From NCBI GenBank assembly GCA_002633005.1, contig NMRA01000149.1:378192-442191 (forward strand): a stretch of 64,000 bases of DNA, written 5' to 3'. This stretch comes from Phoronis australis. Lineage: Eukaryota > Animalia > Phoronida. A program made the position numbers and the translations under genes. Under the pieces are notes generated by a model. It was not told where the DNA came from. It saw only the letters and a list, made by a program, of their open reading frames with translations, and searched no databases. Shown here piece by piece: positions 6,560-58,707 of the stretch; positions within the stretch are counted from its first letter, which is position 1; every line of letters starts with the position of its first letter.

Positions 6560-7673
6560 GTGAGTGCTTCCTAGGGACTGAAGAGGGCATCGTTGTGGGC
6601 TGTCTAAGGACTTAATAGTGGTTAAGTGGGTGGTTTTCTAGTCAAGTCTAGGCTAAAGTGCTCTGGTTTGAATGATGGTACTTGGACATGTTTCTGCTCT
6701 AATTTCAGTTATGAAAATTTTAAGCACATTGTGCATTTATTACATTTTAAAATGTTTAGGCCAAGCCTGTTGTGTCCATAGAATTGTGATTAAGGCATTC
6801 AAATACAATTAACTGACTTAAAGCACGCCTTTTCTTAGGTTTCATCATGTCTCATTCTTTCTTCATCCAAACCTACACTGGGTTGCTTGTTTTTACACTT
6901 TGCACGAAAGCAAAGCTTAGACTCTCTGTCTTTTTCTGTTCTAGACTTAAACTGTCATGCATGCCACTGCATGTTCTGTTCATAGTGTCTCTTTCATTTA
7001 ACCCCACTTTCACAGATATTACCAGGAAATAATACGTTGTAGTGATTAGTCTGGTCATGCAGCATTCAAAAGAAATTTTCTCGCCAAACTACTCTGGCGT
7101 CACATGCATCAAGTTTAAGTATATTTCTAGTTGCTACTTTGGCTAATTTCCCACAAATAGTTGATGTTGGAGTCGTTATAGTGCTCTGAAGTATTGCACC
7201 TGTATGACATCAGAGATAGTCTGAGGTTTTGTGTATTGCATGTTAATGAGTGAGTGAACTAACTTTGATCTTGTGTTTTTTGTTGTCCGCGTTAGGTTTT
7301 CACTGTCCTCCACTGATGAGGCTTGATAACATGAATGTCTCACGGTGGTAGATAGACCCCGTACTAATTTTCATCCCTGTCTGTTCTGAAACACCTCATC
7401 TTTATAGTTGTGTGTCAACTGAGTATTCAAACAAACTACTGCTCTTAAATCAAGCACTTAATTGTATGAATTGTCAAGACACTTTAACAGTCACGCGTTG
7501 AATTCAAGGTATCAATTTAAAATTGAAATTTTGAATTCTGACTGCTGGGTAATTCCCTATCAGCAATTTGCTGCGTGCAAGTCTCCCTGTAGTGAACTCT
7601 TAGTTCTATACTCTTAACTGACTGTCTGTTTCTCTTGCCTCTCATTAATCGCTTGTGTGCTTGCTTGTCGCAG

Positions 7674-7721
7674 ATGACAGTTCACTTGACAGTCGTGGCC
7701 AGCCTCGGGGACCGGTACTAG
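7674..7721 (+). CDS. AFDN: Afadin 48-nt small exon (symmetric phase 1)
   Basis: Long pyrimidine tract, tcgcag|(D)DSSLDSRGQPRGPVL g|gtacgc. Joins in frame to GDVIHTL. Confidence 0.75.
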   Translation: MTVHLTVVASLGDRY

Positions 7722-8868
7722 GTACGCTCATTTCCTTCCACACATTTTTCACCTAGTACTTCTGCTTACTATTGTGATTTACTCGCACAATGATGATTTC
7801 AAACTTCCATGTTTCATTTGCCATTTTAAAACTTTTTCTGTTTGATGTTTCTTTTGCTGCTCAATTGACTGCGTCCAGGTTGCCAGTCTTCTTCCCTCAC
7901 GAACCACACAAGTGTTCTTACTAACAACATTCTTTCCCCGCAAGCTTTATTACGTTTATCATGCCCTTAACTTATTTTCTTACATTTTCTCATGAATCAC
8001 AGATCATTTCTGATGTGCTTTTGGCCAGTTCTAGTGTACAGACAGTTTGATACTTTGTACCAGGCTTGTACCTTTTACCAGAGAGTGAAAAGGGATGCTG
8101 TTTATCAGGAAAACATTGTACTCATGAGAAAAGAATGCTGTTACTGAGAAGTCTTGTGTGGTTCATAAGAGCAGAAGAGTGATTTCCCTGTTGTATATTG
8201 ATAGTTAAGTTGACGTATTATTTCTTTTATAATATCACCATTGTTCTTAGATGTTTAGACTCAACTTGCAACCACCTTGTCAGCACAGTGCTCTGCATGT
8301 TTTTCCATGATTCTTTCCAGTGTCACTTTTGAATTTGCTTTACACTAGTAGTCAAAAAAAAATTTCCTGGCAATTATCGTTTTTTAGTTATAGCCAGTGA
8401 CAGTTGTGATGTCTCAAACTTTATTTCTCATTGATTGAAGAAGTTCCCCCTGTTGGAAATCATGCTGTACTGTGGTCATTCACATTTCATTCATGCATGT
8501 AAACATTGTTTGGGAAGGTGAAGTACTTGGTCATGTGTATACTGTGGTAAATGTTTGCAGTACTCCCATCTCCTGTAAATGGAAAGGAACTATCTTAGTA
8601 CACTTCTTCCTAATGATTTCACTGATTTCTCTTAGTTGAATTTCAGACAGTCTAGTCTCATGTTCAGAGATTCAGTTCTTTTCATAAGATTGTGCTATGA
8701 AGTTAAGTTGGTGTTTAGGTAATAACTATCACTGTCATTTTTGTTTGCAAAAGTTTGCTGAGTCTATACTGTCCACTCTAATTTTATTACCTCAAGGAGC
8801 CTTTTACGTGTGGTAGTTGGCTGCACCTTTTAACGTTGAACATGGACCTGTCTTGTCTGCCCCACCAG

Positions 8869-9134
8869 GTGACGTAATTCATACACTATCATCAGCTATG
8901 TCACTACTGCGCCGTTGCCGTGTGAACGCAGCCTTAACCATCCAGTTGTTCTCTCAACTCTTCCACTTCATCAACATGTGGCTGTTCAATCAGTTGGTGC
9001 TGGAGCCTGCCGCACAGCTGTGTACTCGTGACTGGGGCATGAGACTGAAGCGCCACCTGGGGAGAATCGAGGCATGGGCAGAGAAACAGGGACTGGAATT
9101 AGCAGCTGACTGTCACCTGTGTAGGATTATTCAG
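8869..9134 (+). CDS. AFDN: Afadin exon, Dilute domain core
   Basis: caccag|(G)DVIHTLSSAMSLLRRCRVNAALTIQLFSQLFHFINMWLFN...AEKQGLELAADCHLCRIIQ|gtaata. Confidence 0.97.
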
Positions 9135-9868
9135 GTAATAATAACAAGGACAACCTGAAGCACCTCACAAAATAAATAAATCTGATGCACTGCAATGGTA
9201 GTTGTGTTAGTTACACTTAAACATTTGATGTTCCATCAGAGGTTGAAAGACGAGGCTTTAAATTTTTATTTGAAAGCTTTCACATCGTAGATGTTCATTT
9301 AATTGTGTAGACAATACATCGAAGAAGAATGGTGTAGTTTTTGGATATGTGGAACCCTTGAAAATGGCCAAATTTGGCTAATTTTGGAACATATCTCAAA
9401 AATGGCTGATCAGATTCACTTGAAACTTTCTCATGCTCTGCTTCATACACCGTTCTCCATTACGCTGTTTGGAATTGTTTTTAGAGTGTTCCATTTTTGC
9501 ATGAGGGGCTATAAAAATTTGAAAGTTAAGTAAACAGAAAGTAATTTGATGTAGTTCAATGATGGCCTTAAATGTCCATATAGTTATTAATATTCACCCT
9601 GTTTGGTTATAGCATTCTGTCCTGTTACCACATATTCCTATTGTTCATGGAGTTGACTACAACATGAAAATAAAACTCTGCAGTTGACATAGCTGGTCTG
9701 GCATTGCTGTGTCACTCTTTCACTTTGTCATTCTATGGTGAATTCAGCCTCATCTTGACAATTCTCTCGATTTCTCACTATGAATGTATCGAACACATTT
9801 TATAGTCATAGACCGGTGTCCAAAGCCAGTCTACTTCTGTTTCTTAATATGAGATTTCTGCCCAACAG

Positions 9869-10030
9869 GCGGCTCACCTTCTTCAGTCACCCAAAAGCAG
9901 TCCCGACGACATCGCCAGTATTAGCTCCACATGCTTCAAGCTGAACTCTCTCCAGCTGAGAGCACTGTTGGAGAACTACATCCCGGCACCGGATGAACAG
10001 CGCATCCCTCAAGACCTCATCGAGAGTGTG
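9869..10030 (+). CDS. AFDN: Afadin exon, Dilute domain
   Basis: caacag|AAHLLQSPKSSPDDIASISSTCFKLNSLQLRALLENY...LIESV|gtatgt. Confidence 0.95.
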
Positions 10031-10977
10031 GTATGTACTGGCGCTTACTCTATGCTTGTTGCCTTAACCAAAGTTTCGTGTTATGGGTAATTTAGTTGTT
10101 TGCTAAGTGGCAGCATGCCGTTGCTTTATGAACTAATCCTTGAACGACAATTGACTGAAATTAAATAAGCAAAATAACTTCTATTAAGCACAAAAAGTTG
10201 TAATAAATTTATCCAACCAGTTATTCAGGCAAGGTGTTTTGTTTCTTGCAAAACCTACAGAACTTGTTTTTACAATGAAAGATCTTGATTCGTTATTTAG
10301 ATCTAACTAATTGTGTTTATGTATGAACTCAAACATTTTACAAGTCTTGATTACTGAGTTTTGTTCACAGCTATAGTTGTGTTATTTCTTTGTCAATATA
10401 GTTTGTTAATTAACTTAATTTTATTAGGTGACCGCTCTACGTGGCTTAGTCAACTAAGAGGTTTTACCAAATTTGCGAATGCAATGAATGAATGTTTGGA
10501 TTTTGCGTTCCATCTCATAGGCAGTCTTCATGGATTAGCTGAAAATCAGTTATAATCATAGCCGAACTTTCAGAATATCACGGTTTCAACATTTGAAAAT
10601 TCTTTAAAAACATCATTTTCGACGTCATGACCCTTGATGAACGATAAATGTGTAGTCGCAGGTTACCACGCCTCATCTGACCACGCTCTCAAAATACTAC
10701 AGCAGTTGGAACTGTTCAGCAGAAGTCAGAAAGACTCGGCTGAATGTCTGTCTCGGGGGGTGAGGCAAAAGAAAGAACAAAGGATTTCAATTTTGACATT
10801 TGATAATGATGTTTGGCAACCTCAGTTCACATTTGGCATCCTGGGAGTGTTTCTATGGGCTTGTATATGCAATCGCAGAAGTCACGTAAAGTCTTCCTGA
10901 GCTTGTGGATGACCTGCCCAAAGTGAATGTTCTGTTGTTAAAACTCCTCCATGTCTAATATCCCTTCTTGCCGCCAG

Positions 10978-11158
10978 GTGTCAGTAGCGGCCAACACAGC
11001 GGATGAGCTAACCCGTAGCGAAGGCCGTGATGTGCGTCTGGAGGAGGAGCCTGATCTCCAGCTTCCGTTCCTGTTGCCGGAGGATGGTTACTCCAGCGAC
11101 ATCGTCCGAGGACTCCCCAATGGTCTGCCAGACTTCCTTGAGCCTCTCAGTCAGACGG
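10978..11158 (+). CDS. AFDN: Afadin exon, post-Dilute conserved block
   Basis: cgccag|VSVAANTADELTRSEGRDVRLEEEPDLQLPFLLPEDGYSSD...LSQT g|gtacgt. Confidence 0.95.
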
Positions 11159-11889
11159 GTACGTTCACGAGCTGGCCTTGTATGGGTGTTTGGCTGTGTT
11201 CATTGCACAAGTCACTGCTTGGATTGAAACTGAATGTTAGGTTTGATGACTCTGTATTGTCTTCCTGTTAGAAATTTAACCTGTGCAGTACCAGCAGTAG
11301 GACTAGTAATCAATCCATTGAGTCCAAAACATTGAAAATATGTAGTTGGATTAGCAGTAAGATGTGATTCAGTAGCATTTTACATTCGTGAATACATGAC
11401 ATCATATGACCTCAAAGGGGTAAGGTATGACTGGTGTGCACCTTTTATTTGTTGCCTTTACCTCTATAATTATGCCCAAAATGGTGTAATTTGATCCTAA
11501 ATTGATGATAAGCATATTTGTTGACATTGGGCATCGTAATGTCACTGGTTTTATCCTAGAAACTCGGCTTGCATTTATACTGACTTATGGCTCTCCCAAT
11601 TCCTCGTCTTTCTGTTAAACATTCAGACTGGTTGCTATTAGTTACATCACAGCTTGCCACAGCTGTCTGCAGTGTTACTTGTCCTTTAATGTTGCGTATT
11701 CCCGTTTTCCAAAAATATGATTTAAATTTTCCAAACATGCAGCCATAGTATGTGTTGCTTGATGGAATGTTTGTGAGGAAATTTGTTGTCGCCAAATTTC
11801 TTAAAAGTCTGTTTTCAAGAACTACAAGATATTTCTGTGTCTTCTTCACTTGAGTTATAACAGTGTGAGAATGTGTCATCTTCTTATAG

Positions 11890-11975
11890 GCATATGTCGC
11901 ATGACGCTGCACCCAAAGGCTTCAGGTTTGTGGACCGTGTACATGGTGGGACCAGACGGAGTTGGCTCACCGGAG
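11890..11975 (+). CDS. AFDN: Afadin exon
   Basis: ttatag|(G)ICRMTLHPKASGLWTVYMVGPDGVGSPE|gtgtgt. Phase 1 to 0. Confidence 0.9.
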
Positions 11976-18998: not shown

Positions 18999-19145
18999 GG
19001 CTCACACACCAGTATACCACTAGATCGTACTGGTGGTCCACCCAGCGATGCTCCACCCCCGGGCCTTCCCGCAGAGCCTGAAGTGATGACAGTCAGTTTC
19101 AGTAAAGTGCAAGGCAGTATGGGATTGAGCATCGTGGCTGCCAAG
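18999..19145 (+). CDS. AFDN: Afadin exon, PDZ strands bA-bB
   Basis: tttcag|GSHTSIPLDR...EPEVMTVSFSKVQGSMGLSIVAAK|gtaagt. Confidence 0.95.
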
Positions 19146-19661: not shown

Positions 19662-22459
19662 CAACAGCAGTGATGAGACATACGAGCAGTGCAATATATA
19701 TCGTAGGCAGCGTTAGCAAAAATATCTGTTCAGATTGATTTGAGCAGCTACAGCCCTGTCTAATATCAGTGGCTATAGCTTCTGAAAATTCAAGAGTTCT
19801 ATTTTTCATATCGTTTCTCGTTCCAAAATTGTATTTCATGTTTTAAGGACCTAAATACTGTGCAGATTTACGGTTGTTAATGCCATTTCTGCGAGTGTAA
19901 AGTAACCCTGAAGTTTTTATGTCATGTGGAAATCTGTTTAATATTCTCATTGAGTACTAGCACACGTTAGAAAAGATTTTATTTCAAGTTATATTGAGTG
20001 CAGATTGGGCGAGTCGTAAATGGTCAACATTAAGCAAGGTAAAAAAATGAAGCCACCAAAATAACATCTGTGAACTCCATTCCAACTGCAGTGTAACCAT
20101 AGAAATAGGAGAGTTAACTTTTTCATGACTGGTTTGTTGTCGTGAAAGTTAGTTTAGGTATTCTGCAAGTAAGTAATTGGATGTCTACTAATTAAACTGA
20201 AAGCAAAGTACATGGTTTGATTGTCCTGCAGGGAGTTGCGTATGATTGATTATAGTTTTTGTTGGCGAGCAATTTGTGGGGTGCTGTCATCTCCCAGGTG
20301 TCGTCTCCTGTCAGTCTAGTGTTACTAAAGTGTCTTGCTTATTTGCTTATTTTGACAACTGCAACTATCAATTCATCAGGAGCATTGCTGATTATTCCTG
20401 TGTAATATATTAGTGTACAACAGTACACAGTTTTAAACTAGGAACACACATCATTCATGAAGCTTAACAACAGAGACCTCATTGAGTGAGTGAGTGAGTT
20501 GAGTCTTTACGATTACTGAACAATCTAAATTCAACTCAGTTTTGAGTGGAAAATACCACCTTAACAGTATCATTGGAAACACGGGTTGGTTTGTTAGTTC
20601 ATTGAATATACATCAAAAGTAATAAAATTGCATTGAAGGGTATAACACACCCTTAGAAATCGCTTCACATTACGTCCATGTTTTCATTATTCCTTTTCAT
20701 ACATCCACTTCCAGTGCGGAGGTCACAGAAGCGGCAGTTACGCTAGAAGTGTGTAGCACCATTTTTAATGCTGCTTGTTTCATTCATTAAAAAGTAAAAG
20801 ACTGTTTCATGACCAGATCACATTTTATGTACAAAAATAATAATTTTTGTTGTGTTGAGTTTTAAGAAGTTCTACTGTCGTGAAGATATGGACATTTATG
20901 GCACCTGGTGTAGCGATTGTACATTTAACTTTTGTGTTAGAATAACTGTCAACCACCTTTCAAAAGAAAACTAATTTAATTAAATGGAAACAAGTGAGTT
21001 AGTGAAAGGGAAAACTGTCTCCTAACATTTATTCATTATACTGTAATGTAGTGTTGGTACAAGACAGGGTTTTTGCGTCATCTGATGACATTGCGTACGC
21101 TTCCTTGGATGACGTTTGGGTAAAACGTACAAAATGAAAGGGAAAGGAACAAAAGCAATCACTTTAATTTCTGGGATATGTTCCAGTGTTTTCCATTGAT
21201 AAAAGTACTTTCTGATTTGCATCATTTTTGTCTGGTGTTCTATTTTGGTGTATTGATTTCTGTACCTTTTTCACTAGCATTGGGCCCCAAAAAAATTTTA
21301 TGCAAAATTTTTTATAAATGGGTTTACAGAAAACCAGTTTTAGTAAGTGTAGGAGAAGCACGTGTAGTATACACACTGAAGTAATATTTTGAAATCTAAT
21401 TATGTGACATATACACAACCAAGTGTGATATGAAACTGTTGTACATTGTGCACTGAGCTGCTATGGCTAGAAAGGCTTGGGAAAAGTTGGTGTCAGTTTT
21501 AGTGACTCCTTCACTGAATGTGTATGCAAATAAGTCACCCGACCTGTGACCACCAACTGGTTTCACCCTTCTGTGCTGAGAAACATTAAGCATAGTACGT
21601 GCGTCAGTAATGTTAAGTAGTGAGAAAATAACCACAATATAGAAAGTGAGTTAAAAGCTGGCTGTTGGCGTGTTAGCTTGCAATTTATCTGAGTCTTCAC
21701 AGATTACACATGACACAGTAACTTCAGTTTGATGAACTGTTGATATTTTTACTTACTGCTGCGTTATATTGCACCTTGTTGCTCAGTCATATCATTGTTA
21801 AGCTTTGTGAAATTATGTGATTTTAGAATACTCCAGTGCTTGGCTGGGATTACATCAAGCTTGATGCTCTATACACCCTATTCACTCTCTCCATTTTAAA
21901 AGTGAGCCTCTTTTTAGGTTTTAACAACAAAGCATTTTGCGCTTAAATACAATGCTAAGCGCAATTTATTTTGCATACCTCGTTATATTCATGTCTCAAA
22001 TGTATTGTTTTTTAAACCTAATAAGAGGCTCACTTCTAACATGGCGATTGTGTGAATCAAGCTTATTCACTAGATACTTAATGTTAAAGGTGTTTTTTTC
22101 AATAAGTGCACCGTATTTGTTGTTATTCAGCATATATTTTAATTAAAATGTGCAACCTTTACGCTGATTAAGCACAACTTAGGGCCTGTGATCGCCAAAG
22201 TTTGCTCCATACCCAAGTTGAAAATGAACCAGTCACATTGCATGAAAGTGTTAAAGTTCACTTGAAGCAGTTGTTCAATTTTGGAGTCAAGTCTGGAGTA
22301 AAGATTGTTGGTCAGAAGCCTTGATACACTGTAGGTAGTGACACAAGTTGTGTAATCACGTGCTGGTGTCCAGTGAGTAACTTATGTGCAATACAGGCCT
22401 GGCATCTTCTCTGTTTAAAATATGTATTACCTACCACGTCTCTTACTTGTTCTACTGTA

Positions 22460-23336: not shown

Positions 23337-26300
23337 TAGGTTAAATTTGGAGTCACTTCTCCAGAAATGGTTGCTCATGGTAGGACCTTAATCGGACACT
23401 AGATGTCTTCTGTAACTCAGTCCTATGTGCTGCTTGTTGAATACCCATCATCAAATAAATAATAAATGTGGCCATTACCCCCCCCGCTAAGGTACCAGAC
23501 GATGAAGTTCATTCGTACTCTCAAACGTATAATGAGTACTGGGTTAACTGAAAATTGTTCTCCTGTCGTACGAATGTTTATCAAAATGATCAGTGTCATT
23601 CTTCATGCTATCTTTTATTTATTTACGTGTGTCTATTGAGAGCACGTCGGTTATGCTGCAGTAACAAAGAACACGTTTCATATGATCGTATATCATTGCC
23701 GCGACCTTTACCGATAACTTCGGCAATGTTTCGCTCTGACCTTTCCCACTACGTCGAAGTTTCGGTGAGTACCAAAGCTTTGCTTTTAAATCCTACTAGT
23801 TTCAGAGAAGTTTCGCTTGCAGGTTAACTACCGAAGTTAACCTTTCCCACTTACCGAAACTTCGGTAAAAGCGACTTTAGCTAGAGGAAAGCATGTATTG
23901 TTGTCACTTATGGTTTCATTCATGCTCTATGATTAAATGTTAACAAACATTATGTATGGGAGGAGTTCAATGGCGTGATCTGACATTAGCATTTGGTGTA
24001 GGAATGTTGAGGGCATTGAATCTAATTCTAGACTGTCTCGTCATCAGTGAAGAATTTTACCAATTCACGAAATGTCAGTTAGAATTCAAATTGTTGCTCA
24101 TGACAACTGACACTGTTTAAAGCTGTATATTATCAAATCCAATCATTGTTCCTTTGCATACATGACATTTGTGATTAGTTTATGTTATCAATCTATAGAA
24201 AATGAAAGTATGAAAATTGTTAGTGCTGCTTGTTGATATCTCTCTCTTCAGTTTGTACAATCATGAGATCCGTTGGAATTGTAGAGAAGATGTCATTATC
24301 ATCTTGGTTAGATTTATCCAGGTGGTTTGGATTAATTACTTATCACAAAATCTTACCAGTTTTGGACAAAAATAATTGACAAATTGATCTTTTCTATTTT
24401 CTCAAGGCTTATTAAATTGTGAATGTCCATAACTACTTGTCTGATGACTTACTCTTGCTGTTGTTCCCACAATCAATGGTATAAGGACAAAGTGGTGAAG
24501 TGTTTCTCATACTTGCCACCAGGGGTCACCAGTAACATTCCTTCATTGTGTTTGTTTATGGTTCAGTTTATTTGTCCAACAGTCTGCTCATATCTCACAG
24601 GGTTCATTCAAAGACATTGTGTCTTTGTCTGTACACATGACACCATCTCCCCCAATTCAGTGTTTACTGAGCCAAACAATGTGGTTTGGTTTACAACTGT
24701 TAAACCCTGGCTTCCGGAAATTTCAAAAAGATTCCAGTCTGAGTCACAAGTGGAATGCACTCTGTCTAGTGATTCACCACATTGTGTATTATGGTTTTTT
24801 AATGGGTCATGCTATACACACTTGACACTGGTTGGATAAATGCATTAGGATTATAATTAAATTTCATTTGCCAACCAACGTGGTCACTCACCGCTTTGGA
24901 TCATTTGAATAACTGATTAACTGTTTAGTGAATTCAATCAGAGTTTACCTTTAACTAGTTTCCGTTTCCACTGGAGGGATATCTGTGAAAGACTTTGGAG
25001 TCTGTGGACAAGTGTTGATTTTCTCGAGATTCGTGGTAGATTTAATGTTGTAACATTAGGTTTTGTGGACAACTTCATTTTCATTGTTTGGGATTGAATT
25101 CCCAGAGCACACGCAAGTTGTATCTTGTGTCTGGATTATAATCGCAACGGTGTCCGTGTTGGAGTTAGCCATACAAGGAAGGGGTGAATCAGCATGTCAG
25201 CAACATTGCCACGGAGTAGGAAACAACTGGTATTCAAGCCTAAATATGAGGCCCCAAACTACTACAATAGCCCCGGATCGTATACGTTGAAACCAGCATA
25301 TAAAAAATCAGTAGGTATATTTTGTATATGATAGGTTTATCATCAGTGGTTGTGGTGAAGGTTCAACTTAAATGGGCCCTACTTGATCTTGCAAGATTGA
25401 CAACAGATCATACGCCCATTGGACTAATCTAGTGATCCTACTGGCCCTCGAAAATGACAGAAATTTTATAATGTAATGATTGAGACGGAAAGAAATTTGG
25501 TTTCTAGGAAATTACTCGCACTACTGACTAATGGTGCTGTGGAAACTTCCTATATTCTTGCTAAATATCTTAACCCATCATTCCTGAGTACAAAATTTAG
25601 AAATCAAATTGTTAGTGTGTGGTTGAATGGTGCAACCCGGGGGAAGGGGGTGTCACTCATCGACAAGGTGACCTGCTCAGTTAAACAAAAAATTGTGGTT
25701 AGGTTAGGTAATATTTTTTCATTGAGTTTTGCTTGACCCGTGCAGAGTCCCCCATTAATTTCCATTTTCCCCTGCAAAGTCACATTGGAGTGGCCAGAGC
25801 TTTCTACCTACCTGCAATGGGTATTGCTATTGGTTCTCATTGTGTGAAGTCTAATAATTAGTCCGAAAACAATCTTAAACATTCGGGAAATCACAAAATT
25901 GAACCTTGGTTCAATTGCTGCGAAATCTGCACAGGAATGGTCGAATTGAATCAAGTTCCTGAAGCGCGGCGCGCTCTTATGACTTGAGTTGTATATTGTG
26001 TTGTTGATGTAAAACACCTGTTCTGTACAATGCTGAGATTAAAGATAGCAAACCAAGCAAAATGGGATGGATCGGAGATGAATCGACCAATTGGGGTGGG
26101 GCAGGAAAATTCACCTGCAAAACGTGACACCAGCAGGAGGTAATCTCTCAACATTCTTGGGTATGCAGATGCTATACTTATGTCTGCTAGTAAGTAGTGT
26201 CCCCCCTTACAGGGGGGAGGTGCGGTAGATGTATTGCTATGCTGCAGTTTCCAAGCTTGAAATCAACAGGTTCTAGAAGAAGAGTTGTTGTTTCATTTGA

Positions 26301-28595
26301 TAAATATGGCAGTGATTTCTCCCCAAGGTTATTTGTGGATGCACTTCTCGGTTGTCAAAAGACAAGCAATGTCGAAATGCTTCATCTTTTTGAGTTCTGC
26401 ACCTAGGTTCCTTCAGACATTGTTCTGAAAATTTTGGGCACACCCAACAAAGTTTGAAGCCACTGAAAAATGAAAAAGGACAATTATGGCAAATAGTTTA
26501 GTCCAAAATCAATGAGATTTTACTTCGGATGACCTGCTACTGGGCAATATATGTCTTGTGAAAATTGTTTATGTGGATTTGATTGATGTTTATGTGGTTC
26601 ACAAATATGAGATAACCCTTTGAATTGTGTTGGTCAGCTTAAAGTTATTCAACCAAGGCCTGGACACACTTATAAGAATGTGGTTGTGGTTTTATGTCCA
26701 GTTACATAATGGTGTGATTTTCAATTACTGTGGGTGTTTATTCATCATATGATGACACAGTTTGTCATGTGTATGATGTATGATTTGTATTGTCATGGGA
26801 TGCTCATAATGTACTCTCCTTCCTTATTAAGTTAGGAAAGACAACTCAGTGTATAACAACCTGTTATACAGGGGGTGTCCTTCCTAATAAAGTGACATCA
26901 CACACTGCACTGTGCCTTGTTATACAGGGGTGTCCTAGTACAGTCACAACATACTCCGTTCCTACACTGCCATGTCATACAGCTATACTGTCTTGATTTG
27001 CAAAGTTCAAAATTGAATTGAATGAAACGCGCCAGGCAAATTATTTTAATCATGAATAAATTGGAGGTTATAATTACTGTAAGGTTCCTATGAATTTCTT
27101 GATTTCTGATTGTGATGTTTCCATTTTGTCAGTGTGTTCATGTGCCCTCTTCAGTTCTCGTGGAAGTTCAAAGGAATGAAAAAAATAATCAAAATTGCCA
27201 TTTGAAAGAAATAAGTAATGCCATGCATGAGAGAGCCTGGAATTGGATTTTAGAATGCCAATAGCTTTTCAATTTAACTCGCTTAATCATGTTCTTTATA
27301 GTTTTGTGCCTTCAGAAGGGTTAAATGTCTATCTGAAAGGAGCGGGACATGTTCAGATACGTTTATATTGATTATAGACGTTTCTCATTGATCCTTTGTT
27401 TTAACAACATGATACCTTGATACCTTGAAAGTCTTATTATTGTGTTACCTGCTGATCATGAGATAGCGTATTTGTGGTATCATTACTGTACAACTGTTGT
27501 GCATGTCTATGTTGATGATGGCATGGCAGTTTTCACATTGGACATTTGCTGCTTTAACAAAATGAATTGAACTGGTCTAGCACCTGTTCTTGTGGATATT
27601 AGGTGTGCCAATCTGCTCCTCCACTCCAACTGATGCTGAAAGTCTCCAAGCGAACTATTGAATTGGAATATGGTGACGAAATGTTATGGAAGCCCATAAA
27701 TTGACACGAGGGATAAGAAACGCTCATTTTTATGATGCACTTGTTGAATGGACCAAGCTTGTTAGCTGTAAATCTGTTGTGTGGATTTGGGTGCAGAAAT
27801 GTTTACCAACTCTTCCTGGACTCCTAGCTATGAATTGATAGACGCAGTAATAGCTTGTCGGAATTCGGCAATGGGCAAATGACATGGACAAATGACTGAT
27901 AATCACGGCAATACTGGTACACTAAGTGGCGTGGTGCGCATAACATTCGGCCACTTAGTTGCATTGAGCACTAGAGATTCCAATGTTTAATATTCTTGTA
28001 TTCATTTCATCAAAATTGGATTTCGTAATTTGTTTCCTAAATATTGAAACGCGTTGAGTTTCTATCTGCATGATTCTCTATCGTCCTGGTCAACACTTCT
28101 TGTGTTTTTATTCCTGTCTGATCTATTCATAATCGCTGCTATTATACAAAGTCTTGTTGAAAATTCCTAACATTATCCTAGTGCTGAGGTTTGAACTGTA
28201 AACAAAATATTTTCCATATCCATTGATGGGCGTGCCAAGTTCAGGGGATCTTGTTTTTCTTGGTTTTGTCCAAGTGACCATTTGTTAAAGATCAACTTGT
28301 GTCGGCAAAAGGGCGTACTGAACCTGGAGTTGTGGCCTGTTCAGTCATTGCAATGTTAGGAACACTGACAGCCTGGATAGGATGTCATCAAGCATCTCTT
28401 ACTTGAACTGTCTGCACTGGACCAGTGTCCATGTCAAATGTGACAGTCTATTAAGTATTGGAAACCTGTTTGAGCAATTCATACCTGTATGGAGTTCACT
28501 GTGTTGCTTGTTTGAAAGCACACCGCTTTTTGTTTAAGGTTTGACTGGAATAGTCTAGGTCTTCTGGCATTTGCTTTGTTTTTTGTTTGGCACAG

Positions 28596-30164
28596 TTAAA
28601 TATGGTGCAGGAGTTGGTGATGGTGGATTTTGACACTAGTTTGTCAAGGAGTGATCAGAGCAGTATACCAGGCATTGGTGTGATGAGGCAGAGATCAATC
28701 AGCACTGTGGACAAGATAAGTAAAGATATTGGCTTAGTGAAGCCTGCTGTGTTGACCAGAAGTGAGGGGAGCGTGAGCGTTTTAGGATCTTCCTTGGACA
28801 GAAAAGGAAGCAGACGATTCAGAGAAATATCCATCCCGCCACGGAGTGATTTAGCTGCTTTGGAGAAAAGGAAAGGAAATTTAAAGGGGAAAGCTGGAAC
28901 TGATGGAGAGGAGACTGGCCTGCTTAAACCCAGTGAAGAATTAGAGCTTAGAGAAGTCAAGAATGGTAATTCAGCTAACAATAGCTGTGTTAACAATAGT
29001 GTGTTTTATAGGCTTTACCCAGAGGTGGACAAAAGAGGTGGTTGCTTGAATGGGGCCAGTGACTGTAGAACTCACATAGACTATAATACTGCTGTAGTGG
29101 AAGTTGATGCGAGTCGCAACCGTGCACACAAGGAGTCTGTCTCCATTTCCAGTCCACCAGGGTACAGTGTTAGAGACAAGGGTTGGTGTGTGGCTGTGGG
29201 AGCATTTGAACAGACGTTGGCCTATAGTGAAGTGTTGAGTGGACAGGAGATGGAGCTGATGTCACCTCCCCGCCAACCTGCGCGAGTATCTAGCAGGAGT
29301 GTGGGGCGTCGCAAGGTTAGTCGTTCACAGAGTGGTTCTGGCGTCATCGTGGAGGTGGCGCCGGATGAGAATGCTGACTTGGCAGCTTGTGACATGTACA
29401 GTCGGAAGATCGAGCGTCAGGCTAGCATCAGCCAATGGGAGAAGAAAGAAGCGCGCCGTAACGCAGAGGACAAGATCTATTATAAACCACATGTTGGCTC
29501 ACCTACCACTCCGCCATATAGGAGAATCACTGGTCATGTCACATTTGGCCTTCCACCAAAAGATGAAGACAGTTGGGAAACTGTGTCGGAGCCCGTAGTC
29601 GAGTCATATATCCCAAAGTTGTATCAAGGTGTTGGTCACAATGCTGACATGTATGCTCGTAAAATTAAGAGTCCAATTGTATCTGCAGACGCTACAGATA
29701 GATATCCTGTGACCTCTCAAACGTTACCACGGAGGTTGTCCAGTAATCGTATGGTCAGTGCGGAGGCTTGGGACAGCTCTTCATTACTAAGCACACAGAG
29801 TGATGCCTATTGCTATCAACCTATGTCACGTAACTCACAGAAACTGTCTTACAGCTCTACGTCCTACACACCTACTTATGAAGGAACCTTTAATTATGAT
29901 GAGGTATTTGTGACAAGTCCGAGTCAAGACGGGAAATCTTCACGTAGTCCAAAGCATGTTGTTTTTGTTGACAATGCTAAGCAGTCAAAAGCACTAAGGA
30001 GAAGATGGAGTGAACGGATTGAGCGGAAAAACAGTGCCGATTTGTTGAGCCGTTGTCGCAGCATGGCGCAGTACGTACCTGCCCGGTCCTTGCGGAGACG
30101 ACGCACAGTCAGTGAGCACACGCCCAGACGAAGTACTGCTCGCTTCTCAACTGTTGGACGAAAA
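28596..30164 (+). CDS. AFDN: Large intronic coding exon (523 codons, Ser/Arg-rich, probably disordered) inside the PDZ-splitting intron
   Basis: 536-aa ORF in AT-rich DNA, bounded by a strong acceptor (ttgctttgttttttgtttggcacag) and donor (aaa|gtaggt), both phase 0. ATG at 28602 in aatATGg context. No transposase or RT motifs recognised. Confidence 0.75.
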
Positions 30165-39482: not shown

Positions 39483-39548
39483 GGCGAGCATCAGAAGGAT
39501 CGTGGTATTTATGTCAAATCTGTTGTACCAGGGGGAGCTGCTGCTTTA
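39483..39548 (+). CDS. AFDN: Afadin exon, PDZ bC-aA
   Basis: ttccag|GEHQKDRGIYVKSVVPGGAAAL|gtaagt. Confidence 0.95.
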
Positions 39549-45608: not shown

Positions 45609-45628
45609 CAGAAAGCCGTCGACAACAA

Positions 45629-45659
<31 letters not shown>

Positions 45660-45848
45660 AAGGCCCCGGCAGCAATCAGAAAATGCGTCCGAAGAGCGAG
45701 GACGTCTCACGGTTTAATGGTTCCAAGGACGGCCCCAGTCCCATGAGGGAATACCCTCCTGGTGGATATCCCCGTGGACCTGGCCCCGTTGAGAAAGCAC
45801 GACCTTTGAACCAGGGTCCTGATAGTAGGTCTTCGCCAGCTCTTCATA
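45609..45848 (+). CDS. AFDN: Afadin exon with polyQ tract and RPKSE motif
   Basis: NAGNAG acceptor aacag/cag; AESRR(Q)13GPGSNQKMRPKSED...SSPALH a|gtaagt. Phase 1 to 1. Confidence 0.9.
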
Positions 45849-46097
45849 GTAAGTACTTCACCTGGTGACGTTCGTCATCGTAATCATCACAGTCATCCTC
45901 GCCCGTCATCACGCTGGAGGTGGGGCTGAGTGACTGAAAAGACGGGCTCTTTTGGGTAGACTGTAGTTTTTGCCCGAGTTTTTAGCCTGCATGTCATCAT
46001 TAACCTGTTTGTTCACCTCACTCAGTCCCACTTCACAAGTCACACACGTTCCTCCTGTCCTCTATTTGTTCATCCTTGCGTTTCTGTTTTTGTGTAG

Positions 46098-49000
46098 ACC
46101 TGCGTGTACTCAAAGCCAGACAGGTCAATCGTCAGCGTAGCAACGATTGCGGTCACAGCATGCGAGATCTGAGGAGTGATGGTTCAGAGTACTCGGACAG
46201 TTCCTCGCTAGATAGTTGGCCACTGAGACAGCGCAGTGTTAGTTTGAAAAACATGGACGAGTTAGAACGCAGTGCAGAATTTGATTCACGTCCTTCACGT
46301 GCGTTGGGACGAAAGAAAAGTCTGCACGATATGGTGTTGGAGGCTGAGGATCGAGATCTCACAGCTCGGATTGACAATGACATTATCTCTGGTAGGTTCA
46401 AATCACCAACTCCTCTTCAGAGAAAACCGTCAACCCCAAGTGACCTCCGACCTCACTTACAAAATGCCAGTGTCAAGGACATAATTGTCGATGCGGAGGA
46501 AAGAGATTTGAGAGCTGAGCGGGAAGTTGTCCAGCTTTATTTGAAAAGTTGTGAACTAGCAGACAAGTCACCGAATTCTCAATCAAAAAACCCAAATGGC
46601 ATCGAAATTTTGAAGAAGAACGGCGATAGGGTCTTACCTGCCCTGTCTCGTAGTTTGAGCCTTAAGGAGGTGGTGAAGGAGGCAGAAGAGAGAGACGCAA
46701 GAGCGCGTTCAGCAGGAGAGAGCACTGCCACGCTTCCCCGTGACTTGAGCAGAGTGCACGAACGTAAGCAGAGTGTTAAGGACCTGGTTGTTCAGGGTGA
46801 AATACGGGACTACAAGGCTGAAGAGGAGGATAGCGTTGTACAACCGAGACACAACAGCATTGGTTCCATTTCTGAGTTTTCCAGTGTCTTTGCCAAACCC
46901 TTTCAGCCAAACGCTGACATCCATCAAGCAGAACTTACATCTGTTGAGGTCTACGATGGTGACAGAGGCTATGAGATCGTCCATGATGTATCAACTGGTA
47001 TGGAAAGGAAGCGCAGCTTGCAGGACATGGTTATGGACGCAGAGGACCACCACAACATAGTCAAAATTGATGCGGAGATGGTCAATCGTAAGATTAACAT
47101 GGGCCGTCGTAAGTCTAGTCTGCAGGACCTATTGAAGGATATTGAGACTGACCCGAGCTTCAGTCCAAAGAAGTCAGGTGACTGCAAGAACTACCAAGTA
47201 GTCTATGCTGAACCATTCGTAGAAAGAAAGTCAAGTAATCGCAACCTGGCCAGGCTGCTAGACACTCCGTATGAGGACGTCAACAATAACCAAGAAAAGG
47301 ACGAGATCCAAAAAGCAGACGATGTCCACATGGACATCAGCTCAAATAACCTTGGGACTGTAGGTGAAGTAGAAGATGGCCTAGTTTCTGATGCACCACT
47401 CAAACATCCGCAAACATTTGACTTACAAGCATCCCCAGGTTCCCATTATAATGAACTAAACCTTCACGTTGATGACTTCCGGGATGCAGCGGAAGCAGAG
47501 GACACTAAGTGTAAGTTTGCTCTTTCACATGACAGACGATCAAGTGATAGAAATAACGTTGACCAACAGTTAGTGAATCCTCACATAAAAAGTGTCTCTG
47601 CAGATGAGGACAAACCATCTGCTCACATATCAATTTTACAAAATTTGTATATTGCATCTCCCGACCCTTCAGAAAGTTCTAGAAACACCAGCACTGTTAA
47701 TCAACTGGGGTCCTTTGCTAATTCAAGATGTACAACCGAAAATATTTTTGTTCCACTCTCTAATGCTTCCAAGTCGGCTTTAAATACTTCACTTGAAAAT
47801 GATAATGTCAACCTTGATGGCCAAGCAGAGGCTAAAAAAACAGAGGAAAAGCCTGAGGTGGCTGATGGTACAGATTTTTCAATGTCTGCGTTTGGCGATG
47901 ACGATGACGGTGTCTTTGACGTCAGTGGTGAAGCTGACTTAAGACTGTACAGGAAATATCTAGAAAGGTCTGATGATGATGTTGGTGATTCCAGCTCTGA
48001 TCTGGGACTGACCTTCAAGGATCCGGAGAAAAGTGGCGATTCCACGGAGATTTGGATTTCGGATGAGATGAAACAGCTGCGCCAAATCGTGAAGCGCAAG
48101 CGTAGCATTGGTGACTTGATCACAGAGACTGAGCTCAGACCTATGTCAACTCTGAGTAGCAGCATGTCCGATGTTCCTAAAATAGACCAGAAACGTCTAC
48201 AGCAGAGGAAAGCCAGTGTCAGAGATATTGTCCAAAGCACTGAAAGGCAGGCATCTCGACCCTCCAGCAGTCTGTCTAAAACATCAGATGTCTCTTCATT
48301 TTCGGCAGTTGTAGACCGTGACATAGGACCTATGGTCCAGCGTAGAAGCAGTGTGAGAGACTTGACGAATACATATGAATCTGGTGAGCTAGAGACTAAG
48401 ATTGACAAGAAAGACTCCAAACAGTCTGTAGACATGGCTCATAGCTCTGGTCGTCGATACAGCATCCCAAGTTATGTGAGCGAGAAGACTAGTTTGAGAG
48501 AACTTGTCTACTATGCAGATTATCATGGCTTCCATGACGACCATAATGAAAAGTCCAAAATTCGTGGCTCCTCAGTCTCTTCGCACCGTCGTGAAATTGC
48601 ACGGCTCTCCCGGAGCAGAAGTGTCACTTCTCAAATTGGCACCGACAACTCGACTTTGCGTGACCTTGTCCATGAGGTTGACAAGTATGGAAAGCCAAAG
48701 ACGAAGGGAAGAAAGCTGTCCCTGTCAAAAACCACGCCTGAACTTCGTGAACTTCGTCGACTGAAGTCGCTGAGTTCTATCACGTGTGCAAATGAGGAGT
48801 GTGATTTGCGTGAACTCATCAACCAAGTTGACGCTGAAGGTAGTGAGACGTTTTCCACGACATCACAAACAACTGCTGAGCAACGAGAACTGCGACATCT
48901 GTGGTCAACCAGTTCAATTAGCTGTAGCAATGATCTGGGTGATCTGAAAGAACTCATACGGGACTTGGATAATGAGAAAGAAAGCCGGAAACCTGAACGT

Positions 49001-49607
49001 AAGACATCCTCGCCTATGAAGACCTTGGAGCGTGTAGAGATTGATCAGCTACGTAAAATGAGTTTGGTCACGAGTGAGGATGTGGCTGGTGATCATGTTA
49101 ATCTGCGAGAACTTGTCTGGGATGTGGACGATGACGAGGTCAATAAACCAAAAAAGGAACGTGGTCTCTCAGCCTGTCAAGTTTCACCAGAGAGGGCGCA
49201 GCTGCGGCGTTTGCGCAAAATGAGTCTTGTTAATGAACCTGAAAAGACAAGGATCTTTGAGGAGGGGGATGGTGACAGCACTAAGCAAATGCAAAGGAAT
49301 TCCCTTTCTAAAGAGAAACTTGAAATTGAAAGACTGAGAAAAATGAGTTTGGTAGCTGGTCAGACACAGTGGGATGAAAAGGAGGAGAATTTAGCGCCTG
49401 CTTGCCAGCAGGAAAGTGTAGTCTGTAATAAGCCACTGCAAGACAATGTTCTTTCTGTGTCTCACTTGTCCACTGAACCTTGTGTTAGTGAGAGTATAGA
49501 GAGAACAATAGCAGACAGTGGTCTGGATGTGTCTGAGCCATTACCCAAACACACAGAAGATAGTGCTGATCCCTGGCCGGCAAACAACCTGTCATCTTTG
49601 TCAAACA
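46098..49607 (+). CDS. AFDN: Giant cassette exon, 3510 nt / 1170 codons, repeat-containing
   Basis: 1186-aa ORF bounded by tttctgtttttgtgtag and a|gtaagt. Phase 1 at both ends, matching the flanking exons (45848 and 50133). Confidence 0.85.
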
Positions 49608-50132
49608 GTAAGTGGTTCTGTGGCTACACTGCTTAGTGAGAATGTCTGTCTGTCCATTTTTTCAGAGAGAAACTAAGATACACTGATATAAGTAAGAATT
49701 GTTAATCTTCCTTTAACGCCATCTGTTGGTCACATCATGCGACCTCTTGTTAAATCTGTAAAGGTCTTTGTCTTGACTGGGGCTTTCTGGTTATTGTGCA
49801 GAAACTCTAGTTCACTGAGCTATCGGAACCAGCGATCGATTACCTTAATCCAAACAGGTTTAATAGGAGGCATAAAAGGTACACCGAGTTATTTCATTTA
49901 CCCCATACATGGTATAAAACATTGATTAAGGGTATTTATTGAAAGCAATTTTCGAGAAGTTGTTCTTGATTCTACTATTAAAGGTCACTCCTTCACCATT
50001 TCAAATCACTGTTTTGTGTTGATCTATTATTAAGTAAGGGTGCTACTGCACAATTCCCTCTAATGTTTTTATCGTTATTTTACCACTTGTGAACTGGGCT
50101 GGTCAGTACTGATTATCCCATGACTTTTTCAG

Positions 50133-50360
50133 ATCAACAAGAACGAGTGGAAGACCGTGAAGGCGGCTTCCCCACCCACTACAATCGACACCCCCGCGGA
50201 CAGGAGGTGCCTGCAGATCAGACACGCTCCAAATCAACATCTAATCTCAAGGTTGACCCCATGGAAGCTCATCAGCCCCAGGGGCCCCGCCCCGCCATGT
50301 CTGCCAGTACCCTTCCCCGTAACTATCAACAACGTCAACCAGAATATGTCAATCGACCAG
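50133..50360 (+). CDS. AFDN: Afadin exon, Pro/Gln-rich region
   Basis: tttcag|QQERVEDREGG..RSKSTSNL..EYVNRP g|gtatgc. Confidence 0.9.
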
Positions 50361-50501
50361 GTATGCTGTCTGATACTGCTTCACTTTGACTTGAAATGTT
50401 TAGTGAAATTAGCATGCATTTAAGAATTTGCTAATATAAACTTTGAGTCTTATTATGGACATTAACAGAATCGCATAAAAGTATAGTCCTGCTCCATTCA
50501 G

Positions 50502-50655
50502 GTCCTCAAGACCCTCGTCATCTGTACGCTAACCACCCTGGTCCACATGACCAGCAGAGAGACTATGTGAACCGCCCGGGGCCACAGGACATGAGAGATC
50601 CACGTGACCCGCGCAATCAGCCCACGTACCAGAACTACCCTCCGGCTGATAACAG
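50502..50655 (+). CDS. AFDN: Afadin exon, Pro-rich region
   Basis: attcag|(G)PQDPRHLYANHPGPHDQQRDYVNRPGPQD...YQNYPPADN ag|gtttgt. Phase 1 to 2. Confidence 0.85.
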
Positions 50656-51111
50656 GTTTGTTGTGGCCATGGCCGTTAGGTGGGGAATTACAATTTGTGG
50701 CTTCTGAAGAAATTGATGACGTGTCATTTGATTTGGAGATGACCAGACTGAAGGAATTTTGCCTAATTTATATTGTGTACACCTTGAAGTTAATCTTGTT
50801 GATTGTATTCCCTTCACTTGTATACAAACCTAGTCCATTGAATATTAAAGATGCATTTTGCCCTGGTAAGCTGACTAAAACACGGTAATAGAATTTGGCC
50901 TTTTACTGTCATAAAATTGGTCTCATAATATTGCTCACGGTGAAAAGATTCTATTTCCGTTACCAACAAGAACATTGAAACCAACAGCGACTCCAGAAAG
51001 TGCTTTAAAGAATTTATTGGAAGTGTCCAACAATAACATTGCAATTAAAAAATGGTGCAGTGCCTGTGACTTCAGTGGTCAACCTATTCAGCAATCATTC
51101 ATGATCGGACG

Positions 51112-51230
51112 AGCTTGGTAGTATTTGTAATGTTATGTAGGGCCTCATCCAAGCTTGGTAATATTTGTAATGTTATGTAGGGCCTCATCCAAGCTTGGTA
51201 ATATTTGTAATGTTATGTAGGACCTCATCC
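51112..51230. repeat. 40-bp tandem repeat x3
   Basis: AGCTTGGTAATATTTGTAATGTTATGTAGGGCCTCATCCA repeated. Confidence 0.92.
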
Positions 51231-51861
51231 GCAAGTCTGTACATTTACCTAAATATCTACGAAACTACAGAATTTAACTCTGACAGCAAAACTTTATATT
51301 TTCTGAAATTAGGATTTGCGTAGAATTTGAATTTTGACTTTTTACCAACTTGCCAATAATTAAGAATGGTAAATTCATAGCAAAATAACAGGATCAATAA
51401 CATGACAATTTCACATGATATAATTATTCAAGATAAAATCTCAAAAACGCTGTTACTGTATTCTAGGTTATCATTTCATTTGATGCAGCTTCAAATTTTT
51501 TTTTCATAAAAATAATGTTAAGTCCTAATTTTGATATCCTCTCATGCAAGAGTGGAACATTTTAACAACAATTCCTAACAGCATTATGGAGAAATATGTA
51601 TAAACCATAGTATCTTGAAGTTTCATGTGAATCTGATCTGCCATTTATGAGATACAATGTTCTCAATTTGGTCAAAATTGAAATTTTTCTAGGGCACTGC
51701 CTAACCTTGCCCCAAAGTGGTTCGGTTAAGAATTCAACATTAACATAAACAGGGGAAAATGTAGCTTTAAGAGTTTGGAATTATTTGAAGGTTTTTTGGC
51801 TGAGCTTGGCGTTCTTGTGTGTGTAGGCTGTTATTGATGATGGCATCAATCATAATTTCAG

Positions 51862-52884
51862 ATACGGTGCACCTGCACACCTGCGTCAGCCAGAGCATGG
51901 ACGTTCTAGCCCCTACCAACAGACTCAGACTCTGCAGGACACTGTGTCAGCTACTCGCCACCAAGACCAGCAGTACCAACCAAGGCCGCAAGAACCGGCA
52001 CGCCACGAGCCAGTGCGTCAGCCTTCGTCATCCTCGCTGCGTGACCGGCCACGTTCTACTCATGATGTGGCACCGAACTCAACCAATGAGATTGACCGCC
52101 ACAGTCGTCCTCAGTCAGAGTTCTATGATCGTAGTGGTGGTCGACGTCCATCTCAAACAGACCGGTATGACCAAAGACCTTCACAGTCACCATATGGCCG
52201 TGAGGGTGACATACCACGCAGTGAGGCCAACAATCAACAGTACCAGCAACACTTCTATCAGAATGCTCCTGTCAGAACACGCGAGGTAACGCCACCTTTT
52301 GACCAGATGCGTAGACCACAGGAGGACCGTCCCAGAGTGCCTCCTTCGGTGGCACCAAAGCCTTCTGTATTGCCGAAGCCAGACAAGCCACGGGTTGCTC
52401 CTCAAGAAATCCCACGTGAAGATATTGACAACAGACAGACGCAGCAACCCTTTTTCGATCCCTCGGCAAGGCATGATGCTCCAAGGTCTCCCTACCACCC
52501 ATCAGGGTCACACCCAGGTCATTACCCAGATGATCGTTACAGAGCTACGCCTCCTAGGCAAGAGCACCTGTACGACACAGCAGCTCGCACCAACGGCTCG
52601 CCAGAGCTTCCTCCACCTCCTCCTGAACTGGCCCCGCCATCCCAGCCGGAGGACAACCCTGCTGAAGAGCTTCCACCCCCACCCCCGCCCCCTGTCCACG
52701 ATTATGTAAACTATGACCACCAAGGTCGTATTGTATCGTCAGAGCCTCCACGGTCTGACCAGCAGTGGCAGCAGCAGTATCCCCAATATGGAGGTCCGCA
52801 GTCGCGTGATCAGAGACCCTCGTACTCAGTTGGGCATCCCCAGTCAGGCCCCCAGCCACAAGAACCCTTCAGGCCTCAGAACAG
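51862..52884 (+). CDS. AFDN: Afadin large Pro-rich exon
   Basis: tttcag|(R)YGAPAHLRQ...PPSVAPKP...ELPPPPP...RPQN ag|gtgagc. 1023 nt, phase 2 to 2. Confidence 0.92.
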
Positions 52885-58645: not shown

Positions 58646-58707
58646 TAATAGCATGTTAGCCACCCATGCATGACATAGTGTACTCATTGACCCCTTATCT
58701 CACCCAG

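What the first reader, a model, noticed from the sequence alone, without database searches (positions are those of the whole stretch)
28596..30164. 523-codon exon inside the intron that splits the PDZ domain: PDZ loop insertion or alternative N-terminus
Seen: the PDZ is interrupted after GLSIVAAK by a 20.3-kb intron (19146-39482) containing a 1569-nt stop-free exon with a strong acceptor and donor, both phase 0. Model 1: inclusion inserts 523 probably disordered residues into the bB-bC loop next to the peptide-binding groove. Model 2: the Kozak-like ATG at 28602, after a non-coding upstream exon, starts an isoform lacking PDZ bA-bB including the carboxylate-binding loop. Either would switch off or retune nectin-type ligand binding. 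The peptide is dense in basophilic kinase/14-3-3-type sites (RQRSIS, RQASIS, RRLSS, RRWSE, RKNSA, RRRTVS).
Basis: partly seen in the sequence, partly recalled or inferred. Interest (0 to 1): 0.75.

Follow-up and report, generated by a model that had tools for sequence, protein, structure and literature searches.

The report
Afadin restarts inside its PDZ domain
A long intron of an invertebrate's afadin gene (a cell-junction scaffold) holds a transcribed 521-codon exon that is spliced onto the second part of the PDZ domain and likely acts as an alternative start, which would give a shortened afadin that keeps its actin-binding tail but lacks the parts that bind Rap1 and nectin-type receptors.

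Summary
The exon is real. The gene is afadin/canoe. 28596-30164 is stop-free, scores as coding only in the stated frame, is transcribed on the + strand and splices 30164->39483 (4 RNA reads in 2 runs). No splice from 19145 into 28596 was listed. Reads run on unspliced 5' of 28596 and stop within about 350 nt. Two more intronic exons (ending 20168 and 25310) join the same acceptor in one contig each, so the intron may hold several internal starts. The predicted product loses RA, FHA, DIL and PDZ bA-bB and gains a disordered, basic, Ser-rich head. No homolog of the head was found, so conservation is untested. Internal afadin starts are annotated in fly and, near the PDZ, implied in C. elegans; ten paper searches found no study of a PDZ-splitting isoform. 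The scan has noted alternative first exons in PATJ and MAGI, none in afadin. New variant of a known kind; interest 0.42.

The parts
28602..30164 (+). Coding part of the alternative 5' exon: 521 codons from ATG 28602, Ser 14%, Arg 10%, last 71 residues net +16; donor GTAGGT, phase 0
   Evidence: Open frame and codon score; sense-strand RNA, mean depth 4.7 (X1), 2.5 (X2), 0.2 (X3); joint 30164->39483 GT..AG in 4 reads
28241..28601 (+). Likely 5' UTR of the same exon; transcription start inferred within about 28241-28460; five short upstream ATG frames, all ending before 28602; includes the AG at 28594-28595 that was not seen used
   Evidence: 554 (X1) and 300 (X2) read-bases in 28241-28608, only 13 of whose positions lie inside the proposed exon; X1 has none in 25573-28240. 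X3 has about 220 read-bases further up, in 27942-28247
18999..19145 (+). Canonical exon ending in PDZ bA, carboxylate-binding loop and bB (EVMTVSFSK..SMGLSIVAAK); absent from the alternative form
   Evidence: tblastn of named afadins; 14, 9 and 4 reads leave 19145 for 39483; strand names from established PDZ knowledge
39483..39548 (+). Shared acceptor exon, PDZ loop + bC onward (GEHQKDRGIYVKSVVPGGAAAL)
   Evidence: Receives 19145 (14 and 12 reads), 30164 (1 and 3 reads), and 20168 and 25310 (one contig each)
42683..43658 (+). Remaining two PDZ exons (42683-42756 and 43537-43658)
   Evidence: Best PDB hits Canoe 7mfw and afadin 2ain/3axa; tblastn; reads leaving 39548 continue with the letters of 42683
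24900..25310 (+). Second candidate alternative 5' exon; ATG 25194 gives a 39-residue head, phase 0, donor GTAGGT; 5' end approximate
   Evidence: One X4 contig joins 25310->39483, GT..AG, 29-nt anchor; sense RNA in X1-X3, but X1 has no reads in 25274-25310 and no raw read is listed at the joint
20135..20168 (+). 3' end of a third candidate alternative 5' exon; no in-frame ATG, so it would start translation further downstream; donor GTAAGT
   Evidence: One X4 contig joins 20168->39483, GT..AG, 29-nt anchor; frame closed 17 codons upstream
2038..11975 (+). Upstream afadin exons in the window (second RA region, FHA, DIL), all absent from the alternative form
   Evidence: tblastn of gastropod, octopus and amphioxus afadins; joints 11157->11889 and 11973->18997
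45609..62784 (+). Downstream exons of the disordered region, coiled coil and C-terminal actin-binding region, predicted to be kept by the alternative form

Best explanation
28602-30164 is a transcribed coding exon of an afadin/canoe gene that splices onto the PDZ bC exon at 39483 and is likely an alternative first exon driven by an inferred internal promoter a few hundred bases upstream. Shown: open frame, sense transcription, the 30164->39483 splice, and reads continuing unspliced 5' of 28596. Inferred: translation from ATG 28602 gives a protein with a 521-residue, probably disordered head, a PDZ remnant without bA, the carboxylate-binding loop and bB, and then the normal disordered region, coiled coil and actin-binding end. 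Such a protein would not bind Rap1 (no RA domains) or C-terminal peptides such as nectin (no groove). It would keep the condensate-forming and actin/alpha-catenin-binding half. Because afadin fragments of this kind need RA or PDZ to reach apical junctions in mammalian cells, the new head most likely serves as a substitute address: a basic tail for membranes and basophilic-kinase sites as a switch. The acceptor sits mid-PDZ simply because this long phase-0 intron is the last place to start a transcript that drops the N-terminal inputs and keeps the tail. Two further candidate starts (39-residue head; no head) suggest a set of interchangeable heads.
For: Splice 30164->39483, GT..AG, 4 reads in 2 runs. 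About 480 (X1) and 270 (X2) read-bases lie 5' of 28596, while X1 has none in 25573-28240 or 30242-32242. No joint into 28596 in either lay, against 27 reads leaving 19145 for 39483. First in-frame ATG lies 6 nt into the 'exon' in good context; the frame closes 16 codons above it. Two X4 contigs bring other intronic exons to the same acceptor. Exon-to-canonical depth differs among runs: about 35%, 15% and 7%, each a lower bound. 73 of 73 fetched afadins holding both bB and bC have them 15 or 17 residues apart. [quoted passage not shown] Mammalian fragments with IDR and FAB need RA or PDZ for apical localisation (10.1101/2024.04.26.591237).
Against: Depth is low: 4 junction reads, from about a fifth of each run. 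The start was not mapped; depth came in 667-nt bins and the 5' extension is deduced from two binnings. The absence of a 19145->28596 joint has P = 0.06-0.24 if all exon transcripts used it. The AG at 28595 looks like a true acceptor. X3 has about 220 read-bases further upstream, which could be pre-mRNA or a longer leader. Five upstream ATGs could lower translation. No homolog of the head was found, so there is no dN/dS and no conservation; the only listed variant in it is non-synonymous, L381S. Protein is not shown. The two extra exons rest on one contig each with 29-nt anchors, under the tool's 31-letter mark, from a run only guessed to be RNA. None of 82 fetched afadin-like proteins is a credible annotated isoform of this type. 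All statements on localisation and phospho-control are inference from mammalian and fly work.
Confidence: 0.72

Rival explanations
1. Cassette exon: 19145->28596 and 30164->39483 insert 523 residues into the bB-bC loop of a full-length afadin, as the main or a minor form.
For: Both ends are phase 0, the frame is open across the AG, and the acceptor is as pyrimidine-rich as real ones. The read threshold could hide 1-2 reads.
Against: No joint listed, no loose end at 28596 among those shown (24 not shown). Unspliced reads 5' of 28596 end within about 350 nt. An ATG sits two codons after the AG. No insertion in 73 of 73 afadins (many are isoforms of a few insect genes).
Confidence: 0.1
2. Internal promoter further upstream: a short non-coding exon elsewhere in the intron splices into 28596. 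The protein is the same as in the best explanation.
For: Acceptor-like AG just before the ATG; a non-coding exon end exists at 20168; depth 5' of 28596 is lower than inside the exon, 1.5 against 3.5.
Against: No joint into 28596 from anywhere in 10600-39569 was listed; lower depth is also expected at a transcript's 5' end.
Confidence: 0.1
3. The RNA is made and spliced but matters little as protein: a young, fast-evolving exon whose product is poorly translated or unstable because of the half PDZ.
For: No homolog; five upstream ATGs; one non-synonymous variant.
Against: A 537-codon open frame with in-frame codon bias is not kept by chance; it carries the TLPR motif that recurs in this gene's other disordered segments; only 1 variant is listed in 1569 nt against 6 in about 290 nt of the other exon's leader (unequal depth, weak).
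Confidence: 0.06
4. Transposon ORF or independent nested gene.
For: Single long exon with no family match.
Against: No Pfam hit at E <= 1; no stop before the donor; spliced in frame to an afadin exon; reads are sense-only, nearly variant-free, with no loose ends among those shown, unlike the repeats at 21890-21950 and 35600-36200; no second copy in the window.
Confidence: 0.02

Closest known systems
C. elegans afd-1 short isoforms (WormBase WS288, as described in 10.1101/2023.07.28.551013; section 28 and passages read)
   Same: [quoted passage not shown]
   Different: The paper does not describe these isoforms, their first exons or function; I could not see Fig. 1A or the gene model, so whether the same intron is used is untested.
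Drosophila cno-RF (PMC8590279, Fig. S1 legend, passage read) and RefSeq insect afadin isoforms beginning MMDWGIRRSIMF
   Same: Internal start with a unique first exon, expressed late (after 20 h of embryogenesis).
   Different: [quoted passage not shown] The insect internal-start isoforms fetched here keep a whole PDZ. Where cno-RF joins was not stated in the passages read.
s-afadin / l-afadin and Drosophila CnoRD/CnoRI (PMC10399776, passages read; PMC4436838, search listing only)
   Same: Natural afadin isoforms that drop or replace modules; CnoRD/RI use one long, Ser-rich (14.2%), poorly conserved exon, much like this exon's 14.3% Ser.
   Different: They change the C-terminus and keep RA and PDZ; this form changes the N-terminus and keeps the actin-binding end.
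Engineered Cno-deltaRA and Cno-deltaPDZ (PMC8590279) and afadin IDR/FAB fragments (10.1101/2024.04.26.591237, sections 6 and 11 read)
   Same: Show what such a protein would lack: RA is critical, PDZ alone is dispensable, IDR+FAB needs RA or PDZ for apical junctions.
   Different: Single deletions or fragments without a replacement head; not natural isoforms.
Alternative first exons of other PDZ scaffolds (CIPP/PATJ short form, MAGI; earlier scan notes e1-9386797, e1-7506352, unchecked)
   Same: An intronic first exon replaces N-terminal domains of a junction scaffold.
   Different: Those notes describe whole PDZ domains being dropped and conserved short heads; here the join is mid-domain and the head is long and has no found relative.

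Membership tests
Afadin/AF-6/Canoe gene | RA, FHA, DIL, single PDZ, long disordered region and C-terminal actin-binding region in this order | tested here: met
   tblastn of named afadins maps these in order from 2038 to 62781; RA1 lies outside the window; PDZ exon's best PDB hits are Canoe and afadin; C-terminal ORF finds named afadins
Alternative first exon (internal promoter) | Functional 3' donor spliced to a shared downstream exon | tested here: met
   30164->39483, 4 reads
Alternative first exon (internal promoter) | No upstream splice; RNA continues 5' of any acceptor to a free end | tested here: inconclusive
   Unspliced reads 5' of 28596 ending within 28241-28595 in X1 and X2, no joint listed; low depth, 3-read threshold
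Alternative first exon (internal promoter) | Capped 5' end and promoter activity | not testable with these tools
   Needs CAGE, 5' RACE or chromatin data; the promoter scan offered is bacterial
Alternative first exon (internal promoter) | In-frame start codon in good context | tested here: met
   ATG 28602, A at -3, G at +4, in frame with 39483
Symmetric cassette exon | Same phase at both ends, open frame | tested here: met
   Phase 0 and 0, 523 codons
Symmetric cassette exon | Upstream exon spliced into its acceptor | tested here: inconclusive
   No 19145->28596 joint listed where about 4-6 reads were expected, P 0.06-0.24
Ligand-binding PDZ domain (in the alternative form) | Carboxylate-binding loop and bB strand present | tested here: not met
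   They are encoded in 18999-19145, which includes columns invariant or nearly so in 31 afadins (K949, G955, L956, S957, I958 of P0096); the exon's tail reads A-R-F where the loop has M-G-L
Transposon ORF | Transposon domains, many divergent copies, own stop | tested here: not met
   No Pfam hit; single-copy read pattern and in-frame splice; genome-wide copy number not testable

The most novel reading that the evidence does not exclude
The intron that splits the afadin PDZ is an old internal-promoter hub, shared at least with nematodes, from which animals make a second class of afadin: no Rap1 input, no nectin binding, only the condensate- and actin-binding half, steered by interchangeable heads (521 residues, 39 residues, none), the two coding ones each carrying a TLPR motif and a PP1-docking-like motif. 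In some tissues these forms would outnumber full-length afadin: in run X4 the two short-start contigs (17.8 + 17.8) account for the depth of the shared exon (36.7) and no canonical upstream exon was listed.
Probability: 0.2. Interest if true: 0.68.

Novelty: new variant of a known kind. Interest (0 to 1): 0.42.

Why it matters
Afadin is treated as a Rap1-controlled link between nectins and actin, and its studied natural isoforms differ at the C-terminus. A form that drops every folded N-terminal input but keeps the condensate-forming, actin- and alpha-catenin-binding half would be a natural test of what that half does alone: a retargeted linker or a competitor of full-length afadin. If worms and flies make like forms, alleles and tags placed in the 5' half of the gene would miss them. 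In itself, an alternative first exon with a fast-evolving disordered head is a common device, and nothing here shows protein or function.

Tried and rejected
Homologs of the exon peptide: none at 287-916 aa or 917-2615 aa; none among fetched afadins; these blanks are weak because few close relatives are held. The Atlas gave no answer. No whole genome is held, so copy number and dN/dS could not be had. The run search listed no indexed RNA holder; the runs laid were added by species label. Single-sequence AlphaFold gave mean pLDDT 34, 498 of 523 residues under 50: compatible with disorder but uninformative without an alignment. Idea that the exon's tail (FSTVGRK) replaces bB (LSIVAAK): P 0.004-0.011 against shuffles but noticed after the fact, the loop glycine is missing, and the DNA is not more alike than 44 of 479 other stretches; judged unlikely. 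A complex prediction of this tail with a gastropod PDZ remnant gave no verdict and is not used either way. Nine fetched proteins with bC but no bB were examined and rejected as evidence of like isoforms: partial or automatic gene models and ORF calls on unnamed contigs. The sigma-70 promoter scan does not apply to an animal. A paper search for a TLPR motif found nothing relevant in its listing. Intronic sense reads at 32-39 kb were considered as a fourth start and set aside as pre-mRNA, since the previous intron shows the same rise toward its 3' end.

Full report
The gene. The window holds most of an afadin/canoe gene on the + strand. Named afadins map in order from the second RA region (2038) through FHA, DIL and PDZ to the C-terminus (62781). 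Among the 56 long proteins compared, the best summed scores are a gastropod (1229 bits), octopus (1170), an unnamed protein (1149) and amphioxus (1123), so the animal is probably a lophotrochozoan invertebrate (inference). A PDZ exon's best solved relatives are Canoe and afadin. The PDZ is spread over four exons, and the first intron, 19146-39482, falls after GLSIVAAK in phase 0.

28596-30164 is 523 codons without a stop inside a 547-codon frame; the next longest frame in the intron is 138. Chance is about 2e-15, shuffles reach at most 203 codons, and a codon score trained on the gene's other exons is positive only in the stated frame. The peptide is 14% Ser and 10% Arg, has 19 RxxS/T against 10 expected, and ends in 71 residues of net charge +16. 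It has no Pfam match and no homolog in two word-indexed searches or among fetched afadins.

RNA. Three raw-read RNA runs and one contig set of the same species label were laid twice, on 10600-30599 and 19570-39569; about a fifth of each raw run was read. The exon is covered on the sense strand only, at mean depth 4.7, 2.5 and 0.2, against at most 13.4, 16.3 and 2.6 on the canonical bA-bB exon. Coverage stops at the donor, and the joint 30164->39483 (GT..AG) appears in 1 read of X1 and 3 of X2. The canonical joint 19145->39483 appears as 14, 9 and 4 loose ends in the first lay and 14 and 12 in the second. So the exon is a minor but real route into the PDZ bC exon: 4 of 30 listed junction reads in X1 and X2 of the second lay.

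Which model. No joint into 28596 was listed from anywhere in 10600-39569. Listing needs 3 reads, and about 4-6 were expected if every exon transcript came from 19145, so this alone gives only P = 0.06-0.24. The two binnings add more. X1 has 554 and X2 300 read-bases in 28241-28608, where only 13 positions belong to the proposed exon; X1 has none in the 2.7 kb above or the 2 kb below the exon. RNA thus continues across the supposed acceptor and ends within about 350 nt. That is the pattern of a first exon with a leader, starting at about 28241-28460 (inferred). The first in-frame ATG, in good context, lies two codons past the AG, and the frame closes 16 codons above it. Against this: depth is low, X3 has about 220 read-bases further upstream, the AG looks like a real acceptor, and five short upstream ATG frames lie in the leader.

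Other starts in the same intron. In X4, two contigs bring exon ends at 20168 and 25310 to 39483, both GT..AG. The 25310 exon has an ATG at 25194 and encodes a 39-residue head in phase 0; the 20168 exon has no in-frame ATG. Each rests on one contig with a 29-nt anchor, under the tool's 31-letter mark, as expected where assembly paths converge. One of the contigs also has a strand-switch artefact, X4 is only guessed to be RNA, and X1 covers 24906-25273 well but has no read in 25274-25310. I treat them as likely, not shown.

Mechanism. The predicted protein has a disordered head (composition; single-sequence AlphaFold pLDDT 34, weak), a PDZ remnant and the rest of afadin. The lost exon holds columns invariant or nearly so in 31 afadins, including the loop Gly-Leu and bB, so C-terminal peptide binding would be gone (established PDZ structure, recalled; Canoe's groove described in PMC8590279, passages read). 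RA, FHA and DIL are gone too. In flies RA is critical and PDZ is dispensable (PMC8590279, passages and abstract start). In mammalian cells the disordered region drives condensates, but IDR+FAB fragments reach apical junctions only with RA or PDZ (10.1101/2024.04.26.591237, sections 6 and 11). A form lacking both needs another address, and I take the head to supply it, through its basic end and kinase sites. A rival use is competition with full-length afadin for actin and alpha-catenin. Both are inference. One hint of selection on motifs: TLPR occurs 5 times in 2726 residues of this gene's post-PDZ and alternative segments (0.056 in shuffles), once in each head and once in the second giant exon; both heads also match a loose RVxF pattern. 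Both were noticed after the fact and their partners are unknown.

What is known. 73 of 82 distinct fetched proteins with the bC motif also have bB 15 or 17 residues before it; none has an insertion, though many are isoforms of a few insect genes. The other 9 are partial or automatic models; five break at this same boundary (goat, stick insect, ostracod, shrimp, an unnamed ORF), which suggests the intron is old but shows no like isoform. Insect internal-start isoforms keep the whole PDZ. Fly cno-RF has an internal start with a late-expressed first exon (PMC8590279). [quoted passage not shown] Searches of the held library (listings, with passages of nine papers read) found no study of an afadin isoform that starts within the PDZ. 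Subscription journals and gene databases were not searched. Passages of PMC12132324, PMC10802611, PMC10081768, PMC9845746 and PMC2375026 added nothing on isoforms of this kind. The scan's own notes hold no afadin case.

Verdict. A real, expressed exon, most likely an alternative first exon that yields an N-terminally replaced afadin (0.72; about 0.82 for that protein by either leader). The striking reading, a 523-residue loop inside a working PDZ, is unsupported (0.1). New variant of a known kind, interest 0.42; it would rise if the internal starts prove shared with worms and dominant in some tissue.

Noticed in passing
window 46098-49607 (ORF 46004-49636): Second giant exon candidate in the disordered region: acceptor at 46097 and donor after 49607 are both phase 1, matching the flanking exons, giving a 3510-nt (1170-codon) in-frame cassette; it could also read on to a stop at 49634-49636. 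It holds 10 repeats like RKxS-[LVI]-x-D-[LMI]-V and 4 like LRKMSL, and scores as coding. It recalls the long alternative exon of fly CnoRD/RI (PMC10399776). Not tested with RNA.
   Followed up: partly
window 25194-25310, 29721-29735, 46098-49607, 50135-50359, 62059-62781: An S/T-x-TLPR motif recurs five times, once in each alternative coding segment and twice in the constant tail (0.056 expected); mosquito afadins have NTLPR. Partner unknown.
   Followed up: partly
window 30102-30164: The exon's last 21 codons loosely resemble the bA-bB end of the canonical exon (FSTVGRK against LSIVAAK; a shared 9-nt run), P about 0.004-0.01 after the fact; probably chance.
   Followed up: yes
window 24906-25273: Run X1 covers this stretch at depth about 8 with several variants but has no read in 25274-25310, so its RNA here may end or splice elsewhere.
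   Followed up: no
window 30129: Five molecules of X2 begin here, and X2 depth in the exon's last 222 nt is several times that of the rest: duplicates, or a further short start near the donor.
   Followed up: no
window 3031-3588: Intronic tandem repeat (about 21-nt unit) that reads as two long low-complexity frames.
   Followed up: no
window 12325-12677, 21888-21951, 23575-23874, 35659-36165: Short interspersed repeats that collect reads from both strands with loose ends.
   Followed up: no
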